From: Ignavibacteria bacterium
GTDB taxonomy: Bacteria > Bacteroidota > Ignavibacteria > UBA10030
Reading direction: 5' to 3'
DNA length: 64,000 bases
Assembly: GCA_016873805.1 (NCBI GenBank)
Contig: VGVZ01000014.1
Location: 8,522-72,521 of the forward strand
In this document: piece by piece, positions 31,140 through 61,257 of the stretch
How positions within the stretch are numbered: the stretch's first letter is position 1
Layout: every line of letters starts with the position of its first letter
Program-made: the position numbers and the translations under genes
The notes under the pieces: model-generated
Told to the model about the DNA's origin: nothing
Seen by the model: only the letters and a program-made list of their open reading frames with translations
Database searches by the model: none

Positions 31140-31499
31140 GGGGGTGACACGGCTTCGACGGGGATGAGGAAGCTCAGAACTGCATACCGTGGTCTCCGGG
31201 TCCACGTTAAACAATCGGTAAACCCTTAAGTGCCGACTACAACTACGCACTGGCTGCTTAATTAACTTAAGCAACCCGTTCTCTCGATCTCTCGCCCGTT
31301 GGGGATCTTGAGAACGTCGCTCAGATGGGCTAGTTCTCCATTGTTCTCAGGGATGGAGGACGAATCCGCCGCAAGCGGAACACCCTGAGATAGTGTGCGG
31401 TCAATCCAGCGTGCCGGAGTTTCCGCACATGAACCCAAAGGGCTCGCTACGTATGGAGACGTTCTGAGGGTCTTCTCTTCGGACCGGGGTTCGACTCCC
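31140..31499 (+). ncRNA. ssrA: tmRNA (SsrA); tag reading frame 31232-31261 encodes ADYNYALAA*
   Basis: 5' GGGGGTGACACGGCTTCGACGGGG (tRNA-like domain, G3 pairs with U giving the Ala identity pair). Tag ORF GCCGACTACAACTACGCACTGGCTGCTTAA. 3' T-arm GGACCGGGGTTCGACTCCCCG plus acceptor CACCTCC-A. Followed by a hairpin terminator. Confidence 0.8.
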
Positions 31500-31503
31500 C
31501 GCA

Positions 31504-31536
31504 CCTCCACTGCAAGCCCTCATCAGACCGATGAGG
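31504..31536 (+). terminator. Intrinsic terminator after ssrA
   Basis: AGCCCTCATC-agaccg-GATGAGGGCT followed by TTTT. Confidence 0.7.
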
Positions 31537-57094: not shown

Positions 57095-57171
57095 GGGGTC
57101 GTAGTTCAGTTTGGTTAGAACGCCTGCCTGTCACGCAGGAGGTCGCGGGTTCGAGTCCCGTCGGCCCCGCA
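57095..57171 (+). tRNA. tRNA-Asp (anticodon GTC)
   Basis: Cloverleaf read by eye: acceptor GGGGTCG/CGGCCCC, D-arm GTTC..GAAC, anticodon stem CCTGC/GCAGG with loop CTGTCAC, T-arm GCGGG-TTCGAGT-CCCGT. Confidence 0.9.
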
Positions 57172-57209
57172 AAAGCAAAAATGCCCCTCGCGGGCATTTT
57201 TGCTTTTGC
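57169..57209 (+). terminator. Intrinsic terminator after tRNA-Asp (first copy of a repeated block)
   Basis: Perfect palindrome GCAAAAGCAAAAATGCCC-ctcgc-GGGCATTTTTGCTTTTGC. Confidence 0.7.
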
Positions 57210-57299
57210 CATTGATGATGCGGCTGTGTCCCGCTCGCTTTTTGAGCGGGGTCGGCCCTCGCAGAAAGAACTTCTTTCACAGGAAGCCTTTTTTTTGTT

Positions 57300-57566
57300 G
57301 TGGCACACTGGGTTTACATCATCCAAAGTGAGGCTGATGGAACGTATTATGTAGGTTCAACGGAAAACGTTTCCGCTCGTTTGGAGCAACACAATCTTGG
57401 CTGGACACGCTCAACGAAAGCGATGCGCCCGTGGAAGGTCGTCCATATCCAAGAGTGTCAGACGAAAACTGAAGCGATGAAACGTGAACGACAGATCAAA
57501 CAAATGAAGAGCCGTGTCTATATCCAGCGGCTCATTCTGGGCGCAGGAGGTCGTCCCGATCCGTAG
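57300..57566 (+). CDS. Small GIY-YIG nuclease-family protein (YhbQ/UPF0213-like), GTG start
   Basis: WVYIIQSEADGTYYVGSTENVSARLEQHN is the GIY...YIG...R...E...N motif. The ORF's last codons and TAG stop lie inside the tRNA-like fragment at 57543-57591. Confidence 0.65.
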   Translation: MAHWVYIIQSEADGTYYVGSTENVSARLEQHNLGWTRSTKAMRPWKVVHIQECQTKTEAMKRERQIKQMKSRVYIQRLILGAGGRPDP

Positions 57567-57591
57567 GATCGGGAAGTCCCGTCGGCCCCGC
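57543..57591 (+). pseudogene. tRNA-Asp 3' fragment with the T-arm replaced by a 9 bp perfect hairpin (TCCCGATCC-gtag-GGATCGGGA), followed by a terminator copy
   Basis: GCAGGAGGTCG[TCCCGATCCGTAGGATCGGGAAG]TCCCGTCGGCCCCGC compared with intact GCAGGAGGTCG[CGGGTTCGAG]TCCCGTCGGCCCCGC. Confidence 0.7.
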
Positions 57592-57705
57592 AAAAGCAAA
57601 AATGCCCCTCGCGGGCATTTTTGCTTTTGCCATTGACGATGCGGCTGTGTCTCGCCTGTCCCGCCAGAAAGCGGCGGGATCAATTTGGTTCTTTGCAGGA
57701 CAATC

Positions 57706-57746
57706 GGGGTCGTAGTTCAGTTTGGCTAGAACGCCTGCCTGTCACG
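57706..57746 (+). pseudogene. tRNA-Asp 5' fragment (positions 1 to ~39, through the anticodon loop) directly upstream of the integrase
   Basis: GGGGTCGTAGTTCAGTTTGGCTAGAACGCCTGCCTGTCACG, then unrelated sequence. Confidence 0.7.
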
Positions 57747-57881: not shown

Positions 57882-58883
57882 ATGCCGAGCCTCATACGTC
57901 ACAAAAACGGGATCTACTACGTCGTTTCCACGGACAAGGGCAAGCGAATCTGGCGATCACTCCGCACGAAGAACCGAAGGCAAACCTACCAGGTGTTCCT
58001 TGAGCGAAATCCCGCGGAGGTAGAGCAACAGGCACTATGTCTACAAGAGGCGGAGAACCAGTATCTGGACTACGTAAGCACCAACTTCTCACCGACCACC
58101 GTTAACGTATATCGAAATATTTCTTCCCAGTTCAACAAGTTCATTGGAAACCCACGTATCAACGAGATCACCATACGCGATATTGAGTTATACAAGTCCA
58201 GCCGAATTCGGACTGTTTCTCCAAGTACTGTGAACCATGAACTTCGGGGACACAAGGCGTTCTTCAATCGCCTTGTTATTTGGGATCTCCTCCCAAGGAG
58301 TCCAATGAACGGTGTGAAAACGATCAGAATCACGGAGAAGACCAGGCCGTATCTCTCGAAGGAGGAACTTCAAAGGCTTCTCGACTACACGAGCGGGACA
58401 CCGCTTCACGATATCATACTTCTGACCGTTATGACCGGACTTAGGAGAGGTGAACTCATCAACCTAACCTGGGAAGATATTGACTTCGCTCGAGGCACCA
58501 TCCTCGTCAGGAGCCGTAAAAATCACCAAACTAAAGCCGGAAAGAAACGGGTCTTGCCTATGAACACGACCGCAAGAATTCTTCTGGGGCAAATGAAGGG
58601 CAGACAAGGAAGGCTTTTTTCGGGTGAACGAGGGGGATTACTTAACGGGAACCTCTTGAGAGCAAGATTCAAAAGAACGGTGAGGGCGTGTGGTTTGGAT
58701 AGCAGACTTCATTTTCACTCACTCCGACATACGTTTGCCAGTTTGTTGGTTAAGGAGGGTGTTTCTTTGTATCATGTACAGAAACTCCTGGGCCATTCCT
58801 CGCCACGAGTTACAGAAATCTACGCGCACTTAGGTGGTGCTGAGTTGCTTGGATCCGTTGAAAAACTCTGCAACGAAAGGTGA
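57882..58883 (+). CDS. Tyrosine-type site-specific integrase/recombinase
   Basis: Catalytic residues in conserved context: R (LRRGE), HSLRHTFAS, LLGHSS, and nucleophile Tyr in TEIYAH. Confidence 0.9.
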   Translation: MPSLIRHKNGIYYVVSTDKGKRIWRSLRTKNRRQTYQVFLERNPAEVEQQALCLQEAENQYLDYVSTNFSPTTVNVYRNISSQFNKFIGNPRINEITIRDIELYKSSRIRTVSPSTVNHELRGHKAFFNRLVIWDLLPRSPMNGVKTIRITEKTRPYLSKEELQRLLDYTSGTPLHDIILLTVMTGLRRGELINLTWEDIDFARGTILVRSRKNHQTKAGKKRVLPMNTTARILLGQMKGRQGRLFSGERGGLLNGNLLRARFKRTVRACGLDSRLHFHSLRHTFASLLVKEGVSLYHVQKLLGHSSPRVTEIYAHLGGAELLGSVEKLCNER

Positions 58884-58961: not shown

Positions 58962-59279
58962 CTAATGTGGCGTTTCTGTCTTGTACTCTCTTTGACGTAG
59001 TCGGGATCGGATAATATCATTAAGGAGAGCGCGATCGAATTCCTGAATATTGTCGACATCGATCTTCTTGGTCAATTCACCCCTGGAGTACTCTAACGCC
59101 AATTGACCGAAAATCTCATCAAAAAAGGATACCGAGGCGACCAACACATTTCCGAAGTCGATCCTTATGGTGTCAACTTTGTTCCACTGGTCAATGATCA
59201 GGTCGTGAACTACTTTCCCGTCGTCTCGAGTGACGATGTTTTTGCCACACGTTTCAATTATGTTGATCATGTATTCCAT
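58962..59279 (-). CDS. Small STAS-like (DUF4325-like) protein, putative partner of the adjacent GHKL ATPase
   Basis: 105 aa. IRIDFGNVLVASVSFFDEIFGQL resembles the DFSGV..ISSSFLDEL core of STAS/anti-sigma-antagonist-like domains. Family assignment is from memory only. Confidence 0.4.
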   Translation of the reverse strand: MEYMINIIETCGKNIVTRDDGKVVHDLIIDQWNKVDTIRIDFGNVLVASVSFFDEIFGQLALEYSRGELTKKIDVDNIQEFDRALLNDIIRSRLRQREYKTETPH

Positions 59280-59281
59280 AC

Positions 59282-60214
59282 TCAGAATATTGGCTCGTCT
59301 CGCATCTCTGATTCGAGGATATATAGCCCCTCTCCGTCGGCCCTCGCAATAATATTGACAATTGTGCCTTCAAAAGCAATCCGGAGCTTCTTCTGCCAAA
59401 TGGCGACACCATTGCCATTCTTGTAGTTCCAGTGGACCCATCCATCTCCAGACATGATATGGATTTCGCCCTCGTTGACCTTCAAGAATCTATGGATATG
59501 GGTTAATCCAAGACCAGCGAGTTTCCCAACGCGACTCGAAACGCCCTCTTCAATGGCAAGCTTAATTGCATCAATTGAATTTGTAAGATGAGCATAGGTG
59601 GGAACAGAGGACAGAGCCCTGAGGATACCACGCCCAAAATCTGTAATACAGATGTTTACGTTGCCTCGTTCGGTGTAGGATTGAGCGCAAACAAAACATC
59701 CTTCCAGTGTTTCACTATGGTCAAAGGTATTCGTCATCAGCTCGTTGATACTCAGGTGCAGGGAATCCTTCACCCCCTGGGACATAGTCAAAACACTCTG
59801 AAGAACGTTGATGATCGTGCTTGTGTATGTTGGATCCAATCCGTTGAAATGCCGTAGTTCCGCTTGGTGATGGGCATATTTCATGGCTCCATCTCGCCCT
59901 TTCCCCCATTCGTAGAATCCAATGCTTGTCAGATATTCATTGAGTTTCTTGTTGAGTGCAGGACGGTAGCTAACAACATGTCCGCGCGCGATACACGCTT
60001 TGGCGGCTCCAACAATGAAAGTGATAGCGAATGGATCGCTGAAGGCGCAATTGGACAAGTCAAACAGTATCTCCTGATCAGGGGAGAAAATTGCGGCTTG
60101 GCACCTTTCGATGATGCAATTGGCATTCCTGATGGTGAGAAGCAGCGGGAACTTTACGACATGCATATTGGAACTCGCGATGGTTGGCTCAGAGTATCGC
60201 AAAAATAGCAACAT
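59282..60214 (-). CDS. GHKL (HATPase_c) ATPase/kinase-like protein with N-terminal STAS-like domain
   Basis: N-box LSINELMTNTFDHS (ExxxNxxxH), G1 ITDFGRGI (DxGxG), G2 GKLAGLGL. The N-terminal ~140 aa (EILFDLSNCAFSDPFAITFIVGAAK) is STAS-like. Adjacent small gene separated by 3 bp. Confidence 0.55.
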   Translation of the reverse strand: MLLFLRYSEPTIASSNMHVVKFPLLLTIRNANCIIERCQAAIFSPDQEILFDLSNCAFSDPFAITFIVGAAKACIARGHVVSYRPALNKKLNEYLTSIGFYEWGKGRDGAMKYAHHQAELRHFNGLDPTYTSTIINVLQSVLTMSQGVKDSLHLSINELMTNTFDHSETLEGCFVCAQSYTERGNVNICITDFGRGILRALSSVPTYAHLTNSIDAIKLAIEEGVSSRVGKLAGLGLTHIHRFLKVNEGEIHIMSGDGWVHWNYKNGNGVAIWQKKLRIAFEGTIVNIIARADGEGLYILESEMRDEPIF

Positions 60215-60595
60215 TGGCGACCAATTTCAATTCCTGGGTTCATGAACTTTCTTCGGATGTTTTGACGACTGTCTGAGAATGACATCGGTCCCACCAATGT
60301 TGTGACAATCTGCGGGGTTGAAGATGGTGTCTTCCCGATCGCACAACTACCTCAGAAGCGATATGATCTCGGGATCGAGGAGGCAAATTGACGTGCAAAG
60401 ATAAAAACAGTCACGTCCAGCGAGGCGCTATCGCAATCAACATCATGGCGAGTGGATCGAAAAAGCACCCTCCGATTTCGGGATTAGACTTTTCGGGATC
60501 CACACAGTTAGATTTGACCCCGAGCCGGCGTAGTATGTGCTTGGAACGCCATCTGGCGAGTGATTAAGAAAAGTTATACCTTTCGAATGTTCCTT

Positions 60596-60671
60596 AGTTT
60601 GGTTAGAACGCCTGCCTGTCACGCAGGAGGTCGTCCCGATCCGTAGGATCGGGAAGTCCCGTCGGCCCCGC
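60596..60671 (+). pseudogene. tRNA-Asp 3' fragment (from the D-loop onward) with the same hairpin-substituted T-arm, followed by a terminator copy and flank repeat
   Basis: AGTTTGGTTAGAACGCCTGCCTGTCACGCAGGAGGTCG[TCCCGATCCGTAGGATCGGGAAG]TCCCGTCGGCCCCGC. Shares a 27 nt D-loop-to-anticodon-loop overlap with the 5' fragment at 57706-57746. Confidence 0.7.
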
Positions 60672-61257
60672 AAAAGCAAAAATGCCCGCGAGGGGCATTT
60701 TTGCTTTTGCCATTGACGATGCGGCTGTGTCCCGCTCGCTTTTTGAGCGGGGTCGGCCCTCCCAGAGCAGACCCAATCCCCCATCGAGGGGGTTGGGTCT
60801 TTTCTTGTAATGGGCACGTGACTCTATCCCGCCTGATTATTTTCACTTGCAGATAACTTGTGGGCGCTTAGCGTTTTCGAGAAAAAACTCTTCCGGTAGT
60901 GTCGTTACTCCAAAGAGATAAAGGATGCCTGTCGCTCCCCCACCTTGCAAGATACAACTACCCCTTCCGGCATGCGGCAAGATGTCTTCCTTTCGTTGAT
61001 CCAACCTCTCGACGCTCATCAGCATCGATGACACGGCCTTCCCGTCGAAACAGACCATGGAACGTTGATCCTCCTGAGTCTGCTGGAGATTGTTCCTTTC
61101 CGTCCTCTCTTGCAACACCAACGTGTGGAACGATAACGTACTTTTCCGATGTTCATCTGAGCGACAGTTTCCGGCAGCAATTCTCATTTTTGCTTCTCAG
61201 GAGTTATTTGTATATTAAGCTGATTTTTTCAGACCGCATGAAGGACAGAAGACGTAG

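What the first reader, a model, noticed from the sequence alone, without database searches (positions are those of the whole stretch)
58962..60214. Candidate novel two-gene cargo: STAS-like domain fused to a GHKL ATPase, plus a small STAS-like (DUF4325-like) partner, carried next to the integrase
The 310 aa protein has clear Bergerat-fold N, G1 and G2 boxes (ELMTNTFDH, DFGRGI, GLGL) like RsbW/SpoIIAB-type serine kinases. It is preceded by a STAS-like N-terminal domain. The adjacent 105 aa protein carries a STAS-like core (IDFGNVLVASVSFFDEIFG). This resembles a partner-switching kinase/antagonist pair but with a fused architecture and no sigma factor or PP2C phosphatase nearby. It sits as the only cargo of a small integrase-bearing element. 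Such compact ATPase + small-partner pairs on mobile islands are typical of anti-phage defence or toxin-antitoxin-like conflict systems. I do not recognise this as a named system.
Basis: partly seen in the sequence, partly recalled or inferred. Interest (0 to 1): 0.8.

Follow-up and report, generated by a model that had tools for sequence, protein, structure and literature searches.

The report
Effector-less VapK/VapS-like kinase–STAS cassette
The two genes are real and encode a DNA-damage-sensor-type serine kinase and its small STAS-domain substrate, relatives of the CapKS/VapKSC systems published in 2026, but in a two-gene form with no toxin or DNA-binding output that travels on a 2.9-kb integrase element, on phages and on transposon repeats.

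Summary
On the minus strand, 59282-60166 encodes a 294-aa protein (K; the ORF runs to 60214) and 58962-59279 a 105-aa protein (S).

- **S:** Pfam DUF4325, with a STAS fold and a long conserved C-terminal helix.
- **Setting:** the pair is the only cargo of a 2,877-bp tyrosine-integrase element. The element is bounded by a 28-nt direct repeat inside a tRNA-Asp-like copy.

The pair is not without named relatives.

- The S profile hits PDB 9z7o "Escherichia VapS" (E 4.5e-12).
- K aligns over both domains with VapK (hhalign 99.3%, E 3e-20), including the ssDNA-stacking aromatic residue.
- CapKS and VapKSC were described in EMBO J 2026 (PMC13373217).

What differs is the output.

- There is no VapC (PIN) toxin, no HTH domain and no downstream operon.
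- All 26 genome loci with readable downstream sequence keep K and S adjacent, with otherwise unrelated neighbours.
- Close relatives sit as accessory insertions in two different phages, and as three copies of an IS-associated repeat.

My verdict is a new two-gene variant of a known kind. The sensor, kinase and substrate steps are well inferred. The output is unknown.

The parts
59282..60166 (-). K: a 294-aa STAS-GHKL serine kinase, a VapK/CapK homologue. The ORF extends to 60214, but homologues start at 60166.
58962..59279 (-). S: a 105-aa single-STAS (DUF4325) protein, a VapS homologue. S49 is invariant and S51 nearly so, at the start of helix alpha2. A conserved C-terminal helix (80-101, motif DRALLNDIxxSR) is followed by a basic tail.
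60202..60230 (-). Promoter-like site upstream of K: TTGAAA-17-TATTTT, with TATTTTTG on the minus strand.
   Evidence: and direct reading. This is a consensus match only. I recognise the TAnnTTTG form as the Bacteroidota-type -7 element from my own knowledge.
57882..58883 (+). Tyrosine recombinase (integrase) of the element, convergent with K and S.
   Evidence: Pfam Phage_integrase 2.7e-35 and Phage_int_SAM_4 1.1e-7. NCBIfam XerA/XerC-like hits are below cut-off.
57719..57746 (+). attL: the left copy of the 28-nt direct repeat AGTTTGGCTAGAACGCCTGCCTGTCACG. It lies within the 5' half of a second tRNA-Asp-like copy (57706-57746).
60596..60623 (+). attR: the right copy of the repeat, with T in place of C at one position. 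It is followed by the tRNA-Asp-like 3' half and a terminator hairpin.
   Evidence: Rfam gives a tRNA match below threshold at 60588-60652 (21.7 bits).
60215..60595 (.). Non-coding arm of the element between K and attR. It holds three TTTCGGGAT-type repeats (60367-60375, 60476-60484, 60491-60499), which may be integrase arm sites.
   Evidence: The ORFs in this stretch have no Pfam match. Any function is inferred.

Best explanation
The locus is an autonomous two-gene cassette of the CapKS/VapKSC kinase-substrate family.

**Parts**
- K is a Bergerat-fold (SpoIIAB-type) serine kinase. Its own N-terminal STAS domain is not a substrate: the phospho-acceptor position is occupied by the motif D-P-F.
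- By homology, that STAS domain and the kinase domain together form the groove that senses single-stranded DNA.
- S is K's single-STAS substrate.

**Proposed working (inferred by homology, not shown)**
1. ssDNA produced by DNA damage or phage replication binds K. It stacks on F42 and contacts the basic loop at about residues 165-168.
2. K then phosphorylates S at the start of helix alpha2, on S49 or S51.
3. Phosphorylation switches which partner S binds, through its STAS face and its invariant C-terminal helix.

**What differs from the known systems**
- In VapKSC the partner of S is the VapC toxin.
- In CapKS, S binds DNA through a winged helix-turn-helix domain.
- This cassette encodes no output at all, so the partner must be supplied in trans. 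It could be a conserved host or phage component, or K itself.

**Likely role**
The cassette behaves like a mobile accessory, addiction or defence module. It is carried by a minimal integrase element, by phages and by IS-associated repeats. I think a stress- or infection-triggered growth-arrest or exclusion function is the most likely role.
For: **Homology to the characterised system**
- The S profile hits Escherichia VapS (PDB 9z7o) at E 4.5e-12.
- K against VapK gives hhalign 99.3%, E 3e-20, over both the STAS and GHKL domains, and BLASTP E 7e-17.
- K also matches D. gobiensis VapK, a VapKSC listed in Dataset EV3.

**Fold**
- STAS fold for S.

**Conserved functional residues**
- Catalytic boxes are invariant.
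- The aromatic residue equivalent to VapK F54 and CapK W68 is F or W in 25 of 25 sequences.
- S49 is invariant and S51 nearly invariant at the N-cap of alpha2.

**Strict pairing with variable surroundings**
- K and S are adjacent in all 26 genome loci with readable downstream sequence.
- No Pfam family occurs in more than 4 of the 130 neighbouring ORFs.

**Mobility**
- Integrase element bounded by att repeats.
- Insertions in two unrelated phages.
- Three copies of a repeat of at least 5.2 kb carrying a DDE transposase in one MAG.
- Distant two-gene versions in Marinitoga phage MPV1, in Streptococcus prophages and in Francisella phage KIRK.

**Constraint on S**
- S is more conserved than K in 18 of 20 loci.
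- The most conserved stretch of S is the C-terminal helix, which lies outside the Pfam domain. This fits S being the output-carrying part.

**Mechanism of the relatives**
ssDNA activation, Ser phosphorylation and partner release are documented in PMC13373217.
Against: - No biochemistry exists for this branch.
- The column that aligns with the VapS phospho-serine (S48) is an invariant Val (V50) here. The acceptor must be shifted by one residue, to S49 or S51.
- No effector is encoded. In VapKSC, protection required the VapC nuclease, so K and S alone may not give a phenotype of that kind.
- Association with defence genes is modest, and several loci lie between housekeeping genes.
- Four copies look frameshifted (L023, L027, L028, L029). 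These may be pseudogenes or long-read assembly errors.
- I could not run a K-S complex prediction with these tools.
- I found no empty integration site and no circular form of the element.
Confidence: 0.6

Rival explanations
1. K is the effector, in a kinase toxin / STAS antitoxin pair. S acts as a pseudo-substrate or antagonist that keeps K occupied, as SpoIIAA and RsbV do for their anti-sigma kinases. Once K is activated, or S is exhausted, K phosphorylates or sequesters an essential host or phage protein and stops growth.
For: - K is closest in fold to the anti-sigma kinases SpoIIAB and RsbW, which bind a second partner.
- The cassette spreads like a toxin-antitoxin module: solitary inserts, IS- and integrase-linked, phage-borne.
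- K and S are tightly spaced, which fits co-translation.
- K carries a conserved, disordered, acidic C-terminal tail ending in [IVL]F. This could be a docking motif.
Against: - S, not K, is the more conserved partner.
- In both characterised relatives the output runs through S, not K.
- No second substrate is known.
Confidence: 0.2
2. The pair regulates the life cycle of the element that carries it. It would be a DNA-damage sensor that controls excision or integration of the 2.9-kb element, or prophage induction, through S acting on the recombinase or on a repressor.
For: - The pair lies next to recombinases or lysogeny genes repeatedly: the window integrase, L009 and L019, L051, the Marinitoga MPV1 serine integrase, and the Francisella KIRK CI-to-integrase region.
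- An integrase remnant 52-64% identical to the window integrase lies 2.7 kb from the pair in L001.
- ssDNA and DNA damage are the classic induction signals, and CapKS is a damage-responsive transcriptional switch.
Against: - S has no DNA-binding domain.
- Many loci have no recombinase or phage genes nearby.
- In phage L056 the pair is an opposite-strand insertion inside the packaging operon. In Streptococcus prophages it follows the lysin gene. Those are accessory-gene positions, not regulatory ones.
Confidence: 0.12
3. It is a decayed VapKSC that lost its VapC toxin: a non-functional remnant.
For: - The closest characterised relative has three genes.
- Four copies appear frameshifted.
Against: - The two-gene form is conserved at 32-71% identity across 27 genome loci in several phyla and in phages. 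Catalytic residues are invariant and the C-terminal helix of S is family-specific and invariant.
- More distant two-gene members also exist: P0140, P0262, P0188 and the phage examples.
Confidence: 0.04
4. It is an ordinary housekeeping partner-switching module that controls a sigma factor encoded elsewhere.
For: The fold resembles SpoIIAB/SpoIIAA and RsbW/RsbV.
Against: - No sigma factor or PP2C is nearby.
- It is rare and patchy: 27 loci among 185,579 species genomes.
- It lies on mobile elements and phages.
- The STAS-kinase fusion and the DUF4325 partner are those of the CapK/VapK family.
Confidence: 0.03

Closest known systems
VapKSC toxin-antitoxin / anti-phage system (Chambers et al., EMBO J 2026, PMC13373217)
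   Same: - K has the VapK architecture: STAS plus GHKL, about 300 aa, no HTH. It is homologous over both domains.
- The ssDNA-stacking aromatic residue is conserved.
- S is a DUF4325 single-STAS protein with a short C-terminal helix, homologous to VapS (PDB 9z7o).
- Gene order is K then S, tightly spaced.
- Both are frequently found on mobile DNA.
   Different: - No VapC (PIN) gene lies in the element or beside any of the 26 readable family loci.
- The VapS phospho-serine column is Val here, flanked by conserved serines.
- The C-terminal helix of S has a different invariant motif, DRALLNDIxxSR, against I[KE][ER]VVENA in the two VapS sequences I compared.
- K is only about 25-30% identical to VapK.
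CapK/CapS regulators of immune operons (same paper)
   Same: Both pair a STAS-GHKL kinase with a STAS substrate, and both have the damage/ssDNA-sensing aromatic residue (CapK W68).
   Different: K has no N-terminal HTH. S has no winged-HTH DNA-binding domain. No CBASS, Bub or Thoeris operon lies downstream.
Classical partner-switching pairs: SpoIIAB/SpoIIAA and RsbW/RsbV
   Same: These are the best structural matches: a kinase of the Bergerat fold phosphorylating a STAS protein at the start of helix alpha2.
   Different: The kinase here is fused to its own non-phosphorylatable STAS domain. There is no sigma factor and no PP2C phosphatase. The context is mobile rather than a fixed regulon.
N-terminal HATPase + DUF4325 module of some DISARM DrmA proteins (PADLOC PDLC02567)
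   Same: K and S hit consecutive parts of that model, positions 139-243 and 332-398. This shows that the two domains also occur fused in a defence protein.
   Different: There is no helicase and there are no other DISARM genes. The hit covers only that module.

Membership tests
VapKSC | VapK-type kinase: STAS domain fused to a GHKL kinase, with no HTH | tested here: met
VapKSC | VapS-type single-STAS protein with a short C-terminal region, encoded immediately downstream | tested here: met
   PDB 9z7o_A VapS at E 4.5e-12. DUF4325 at 1.5e-10. The model shows a STAS fold plus helix 80-101. K and S are adjacent in all 26 genome loci with readable downstream sequence.
VapKSC | VapC (PIN) toxin as the third gene | tested here: not met
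   The 2,877-bp element has no room for one and no such ORF. No PIN family appears in more than one of the 26 neighbourhoods. tblastn with D. gobiensis VapC finds nothing in the window or in any fetched locus.
VapKSC | Absolutely conserved Ser/Thr at the VapS S48 position | tested here: inconclusive
   The aligned column is an invariant V50. Invariant S49 and near-invariant S51 flank it at the N-cap of alpha2.
VapKSC / CapKS | Aromatic ssDNA-stacking residue in the kinase's STAS domain (VapK F54, CapK W68) | tested here: met
   F42 aligns to VapK F54, and the column is F or W in 25 of 25 sequences.
VapKSC / CapKS | ssDNA-activated phosphorylation of the STAS partner; anti-phage or damage-response phenotype | not testable with these tools
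   This needs biochemistry and genetics.
CapKS | N-terminal HTH on the kinase, and a winged HTH on the STAS protein | tested here: not met
   K starts directly with the STAS strand. S is 105 aa with only a C-terminal helix.
CapKS | Located upstream of an immune operon (CBASS, Bub, Thoeris and others) | tested here: not met
   In the window, the gene downstream of S is the convergent integrase. Downstream genes in other loci are unrelated to each other.
Classical partner-switching module (RsbW/RsbV, SpoIIAB/SpoIIAA) | A cognate sigma factor and/or PP2C phosphatase in the operon | tested here: not met
Pfam DUF4325 (STAS-like) | Score above the curated cut-off | tested here: met
   41.0 bits against a cut-off of 23.
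Pfam HATPase_c / GHKL fold | Bergerat-fold ATP-binding domain with N, G1 and G2 boxes | tested here: met
DISARM (DrmA) | DrmA helicase together with DrmB, DrmC and methyltransferase genes | tested here: not met
   Only positions 139-243 and 332-398 of the 1,750-position model are matched. No such genes are nearby.
tRNA-targeting tyrosine-integrase element | Integrase plus flanking direct repeats derived from a tRNA gene | tested here: met
   The target is a tRNA-Asp-like copy whose 3' half has a 21-nt hairpin in place of the T-loop.
tRNA-targeting tyrosine-integrase element | Evidence of excision: an empty site or a circular junction | tested here: not met
   The empty-site pattern gave 0 hits in the metagenome collection. 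A looser pattern hit only an unrelated tRNA-Asp. The 3-kb contig L036 is the integrated form, cut at the repeats.

The most novel reading that the evidence does not exclude
The K-S cassette is a self-sufficient, effector-less conflict module. In this reading the small STAS protein is itself the output. Its phosphorylation state, set by an ssDNA-sensing kinase, decides whether its invariant C-terminal helix and basic tail engage a universally conserved host or phage target.

That would be a new two-gene abortive-infection or exclusion system, which phages and minimal integrative elements carry as their only accessory cargo.

A related possibility concerns the acidic, SSB-tip-like C-terminal tail of K ([DE]-rich, ending in [IVL]F at the C-terminus). 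It may be an autoinhibitory mimic that ssDNA displaces, or a hook for proteins that bind the SSB tail.
Probability: 0.3. Interest if true: 0.7.

Novelty: new variant of a known kind. Interest (0 to 1): 0.45.

Why it matters
CapKS and VapKSC showed that one ssDNA-activated kinase and STAS substrate pair can be connected to different outputs: a repressor domain in one case, a PIN toxin in the other.

This locus, and the many two-gene relatives found here, show a third form with no output in cis. They occur in at least 27 genome loci, in two unrelated phages of the close family, and in distant versions in Marinitoga, Streptococcus and Francisella phages.

Finding what the small STAS protein or the kinase acts on would have two payoffs.
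- It would reveal either a new effector mechanism or a regulatory link in trans between mobile elements and the host.
- It would explain why a 2.9-kb integrase element carries this pair and nothing else.

It also gives the poorly annotated Pfam family DUF4325 a concrete role as a kinase substrate.

Tried and rejected
- **K against PDB sequences.** Searching with K alone or as a profile gave only spurious hits: 'Cake' designer proteins and NDC80. VapK has no solved structure.
- **NCBIfam.** Nothing for K.
- **PADLOC.** Only a partial DrmA-model hit and a weak PDC-M65A hit. I rejected both as membership.
- **Search for a conserved third gene.** Negative in three ways: Pfam and PADLOC on 130 neighbouring ORFs, targeted Pfam on immediate neighbours, and tblastn with D. 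gobiensis VapC.
- **ResIII hits.** These looked like restriction genes but turned out to be the housekeeping helicases PriA and HrpB.
- **Empty site and circular form.** Negative or uninformative.
- **Plasmid collection.** It returned one true VapKSC (D. gobiensis), which I used as a reference, and no close relatives of the window pair.
- **K-S complex prediction.** Not possible. The structure tool takes one chain, and the two genes are in different frames.
Full report
**1. What is in the sequence**

The window comes from an Ignavibacteria MAG; the large protein is 100% identical to an NCBI 'Ignavibacteria bacterium' hypothetical protein.

On the minus strand there are two adjacent ORFs: 59282-60214 (310 aa) and 58962-59279 (105 aa), separated by 2 nt.
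- Every homologue of the large protein starts at the internal Met, giving 294 aa (start at 60166).
- A promoter-like site sits just upstream of that start, at 60230-60202 on the minus strand (TTGAAA-17-TATTTT).
- I call the proteins K (294 aa) and S (105 aa).

In a 25-sequence alignment the following are invariant: the N box (E142, N146, D149, H150), G1 (D176, G178, G180) and G2 (G218, G220, L221).

Pfam places S in DUF4325 above the curated cut-off (E 1.5e-10). K scores only below cut-off for HATPase_c, HATPase_c_2 and STAS_2.

Structure prediction settles the folds.

**2. The carrying element**

A tyrosine recombinase gene (57882-58883, +; Phage_integrase 2.7e-35) converges on S.

A 28-nt direct repeat with one mismatch lies at 57719-57746 and 60596-60623 (AGTTTGGyTAGAACGCCTGCCTGTCACG) and encloses 2,877 bp.
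- The left copy lies within the 5' half of a second tRNA-Asp-like copy.
- The right copy is followed by the matching 3' half and a terminator hairpin.

Nothing else in the element has a Pfam match.

I could not find an empty site or a circular junction. Mobility of this particular element is inferred from its structure, not shown.

**3. Relatives and their contexts**

The word-indexed protein search found 56 K homologues and 57 S homologues. The hits that carry an organism name, and all 27 genome loci of the next search, come from environmental MAGs.

A scan of one genome per species found 27 loci among 185,579 species. They come from Ignavibacteriota, Bacteroidota, Nitrospirota, Thermodesulfobacteriota (including Syntrophobacteraceae), Binatia, Elusimicrobia, a Brevinema MAG and a short contig binned as Nitrososphaera.
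- S lies directly downstream of K in all 26 loci where that sequence is readable; the remaining contig ends at K.
- S is more conserved than K in 18 of 20 loci.

The neighbours are not conserved.
- Among 130 flanking ORFs, no Pfam family occurs more than four times.
- The four 'ResIII' hits include the housekeeping helicases PriA and HrpB.

Contexts fall into five kinds:
- The integrase element in this window.
- A temperate phage, with the pair between the replication genes and the Mom and terminase genes (P0021, 63% identical to K, seen on 24 or more contigs).
- A second, unrelated, lambda-like phage, with the pair inserted on the opposite strand between the large terminase and portal genes (IMG/VR contigs).
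- Three copies of a repeat of at least 5.2 kb carrying a DDE transposase in one Bacteroidota MAG, two of them at contig ends.
- Islands rich in toxin-antitoxin genes, IS elements, HEPN genes and an OLD-family nuclease, and solitary insertions next to hrpB/priA, rho, recO or lepA.

PADLOC finds some defence genes nearby (a type I restriction enzyme, a type III methyltransferase, mad3 and mad8), but only in a minority of loci.

More distant two-gene K + DUF4325 pairs occur in:
- Marinitoga phage MPV1, next to its serine integrase.
- Streptococcus prophages, after the lysin gene.
- Francisella phage KIRK, as 293-aa and 112-aa DUF4325 proteins beside the CI repressor (PMC7924643).
- Other metagenomic contigs.

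A profile search of 1.84 billion representative proteins finds 7,917 clusters at E ≤ 1e-3 and 107 at E ≤ 1e-30. Most of the 150 best are 280-310 aa long. The STAS-GHKL architecture is therefore a large superfamily, and the window's family is a small branch of it.

**4. What is known**

A full-text search led to Chambers et al., EMBO J 2026 (PMC13373217). That paper describes two systems.
- **CapKS.** CapK (HTH-STAS-GHKL) phosphorylates CapS (STAS-wHTH repressor) when activated by ssDNA. This de-represses downstream immune operons.
- **VapKSC.** VapK (STAS-GHKL) phosphorylates VapS (STAS plus a short C-terminal region; Ser48). This releases the PIN toxin VapC and protects E. coli about 100-fold against phage Bas42.

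My tests of the relationship:
- The S profile hits PDB 9z7o_A 'Escherichia VapS' at E 4.5e-12.
- I transcribed the VapK sequence from the paper's AlphaFold 3 file.
- K against VapK gives BLASTP 25% identity over 253 aa, E 7e-17. The family profile gives hhalign probability 99.3%, E 3e-20, across both domains.
- VapK F54 is the ssDNA-stacking residue and corresponds to CapK W68. It aligns to K F42, and that column is F or W in all 25 family members.
- A basic loop at about residues 165-168 occupies the position of VapK K180/K181. Whether it also corresponds to CapK K237/K239 is my estimate from their spacing after the N box, not an alignment.
- A true VapKSC listed in the paper's Dataset EV3 has the expected ATP-binding, STAS-like and PIN genes (D. 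gobiensis plasmid P5). I used it as a positive control.

**5. How this pair differs from the known systems**

- **No output gene or domain.** There is no PIN gene in the element, and none beside the family's loci. tblastn with D. gobiensis VapC finds nothing. K has no HTH and S has no wHTH.
- **Shifted phospho-acceptor.** The column that aligns with VapS Ser48 is an invariant Val (V50). Invariant S49 and near-invariant S51 flank it at the N-cap of helix alpha2. The acceptor is probably shifted by one residue, but this is not proven.
- **Different C-terminal helix in S.** The helix carries an invariant motif, DRALLNDIxxSR, which the two VapS sequences lack (I[KE][ER]VVENA). Several other two-gene S proteins share its N and R positions. 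In VapS this region contacts VapC. A different conserved motif suggests a different partner.
- **An acidic tail on K.** K ends in a disordered acidic tail with an invariant [IVL]F at the C-terminus.
  - An aromatic C-terminal residue, usually preceded by acidic residues, is found in 60 of 113 full-length superfamily representatives.
  - An acidic tail ending in F or W is also present in D. gobiensis VapK and in the two phage K proteins, but not in Escherichia VapK.
  - It resembles the SSB C-terminal tip (my own knowledge). The paper does not mention it.

**6. Mechanism**

Shown by computation:
- The folds of K and S.
- The catalytic motifs.
- Homology to VapK and VapS.
- Strict pairing of K and S.
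- The mobile contexts.

Inferred from the characterised homologues:
- ssDNA activates K.
- K phosphorylates S at S49 or S51.
- Phosphorylation changes the partner that S binds.

Unknown: the partner. The only conserved neighbour of S is K, and S is under stronger constraint than K. I therefore favour S as the output. Its target would be supplied in trans, as a conserved host or phage component, or would be K itself.

The main rival is that K is a kinase toxin held in check by S. A role in controlling excision or induction of the carrier is possible, but it fits the loci that lack any mobile-element genes poorly. Decay of a VapKSC, or a housekeeping sigma-factor switch, is unlikely.

**7. Verdict**

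This is a new, effector-less, two-gene variant of the CapKS/VapKSC kind. It has a clear and testable open question: what is its output? Interest is moderate (0.45).

Noticed in passing
window 59282-59320 (C-terminus of K); also the superfamily representatives P0114-P0262: K ends in a disordered acidic tail with an invariant [IVL]F at the C-terminus (here ...ESEMRDEPIF). Of 113 full-length representatives of the STAS-GHKL superfamily, 60 end in an aromatic residue, usually after acidic residues (for example ...TDEDELPF). D. gobiensis VapK has an acidic tail ending in F, but Escherichia VapK does not. The tail resembles the SSB C-terminal tip. It could be an autoinhibitory mimic of ssDNA or a docking motif. 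The CapKS/VapKSC paper does not mention it.
   Followed up: partly
window 57095-57746 and 60583-60735; L033 and L034: The tRNA-Asp region is a tandem array of a 611-nt unit. Each unit holds a tRNA-Asp or tRNA-Asp-like copy, a terminator hairpin and an 88-aa GIY-YIG ORF (57300-57566). The last codons and the stop of that ORF lie inside a tRNA-Asp 3'-half-like segment, in which a 21-nt hairpin (TCCCGATCC-GTA-GGATCGGGA) replaces the T-loop. The number of units differs between strains: L033 and L034 carry an extra GIY-YIG unit. This may be a GIY-YIG cassette that copies part of the tRNA gene.
   Followed up: partly
window 60588-60652: At attR, sequence supplied by the element (TGTTCCT...) together with the tRNA-like 3' part gives an Rfam tRNA match below threshold (21.7 bits against a gathering score of 29). 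The match has no T-arm. This is probably not a functional tRNA, so the element appears to sit in a pseudo-tRNA copy while the intact tRNA-Asp at 57095-57170 is preserved.
   Followed up: partly
L006, L007 and L020 (one Bacteroidota MAG, MFD01188.bin.1.46): Three copies, 98.8-99.9% identical, of a repeat of at least 5.2 kb. The repeat starts about 118 nt upstream of K and contains K, S and a convergent 333-aa DDE transposase (IS1/IS240-like). Two copies lie at contig ends, so the full extent of the repeat is unknown.
   Followed up: partly
L004, L013: Two solitary K-S insertions lie next to priA and recO. As I recall, the products of both genes bind the SSB C-terminal tip. Given the SSB-like tail on K this is curious, but with two loci out of about 26 it is likely coincidence.
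   Followed up: no
L001 7098-7300: A fragment of an integrase gene lies 2.7 kb upstream of a K-S pair in another Bacteroidota genome. Its two pieces are 64% and 52% identical to the C-terminus of the window integrase. This suggests a decayed element of the same type.
   Followed up: no
window 31140-31510: ARAGORN finds a tmRNA gene with tag peptide GKPLSADYNYALAA. It is unrelated to the finding.
   Followed up: no
L053 (P0169): A 568-aa relative of K has two stretches that match the K profile. It is followed by a DUF4325 gene and by a third ORF, cut at the contig end, with no Pfam match. This may be a duplicated or fused variant.
   Followed up: no
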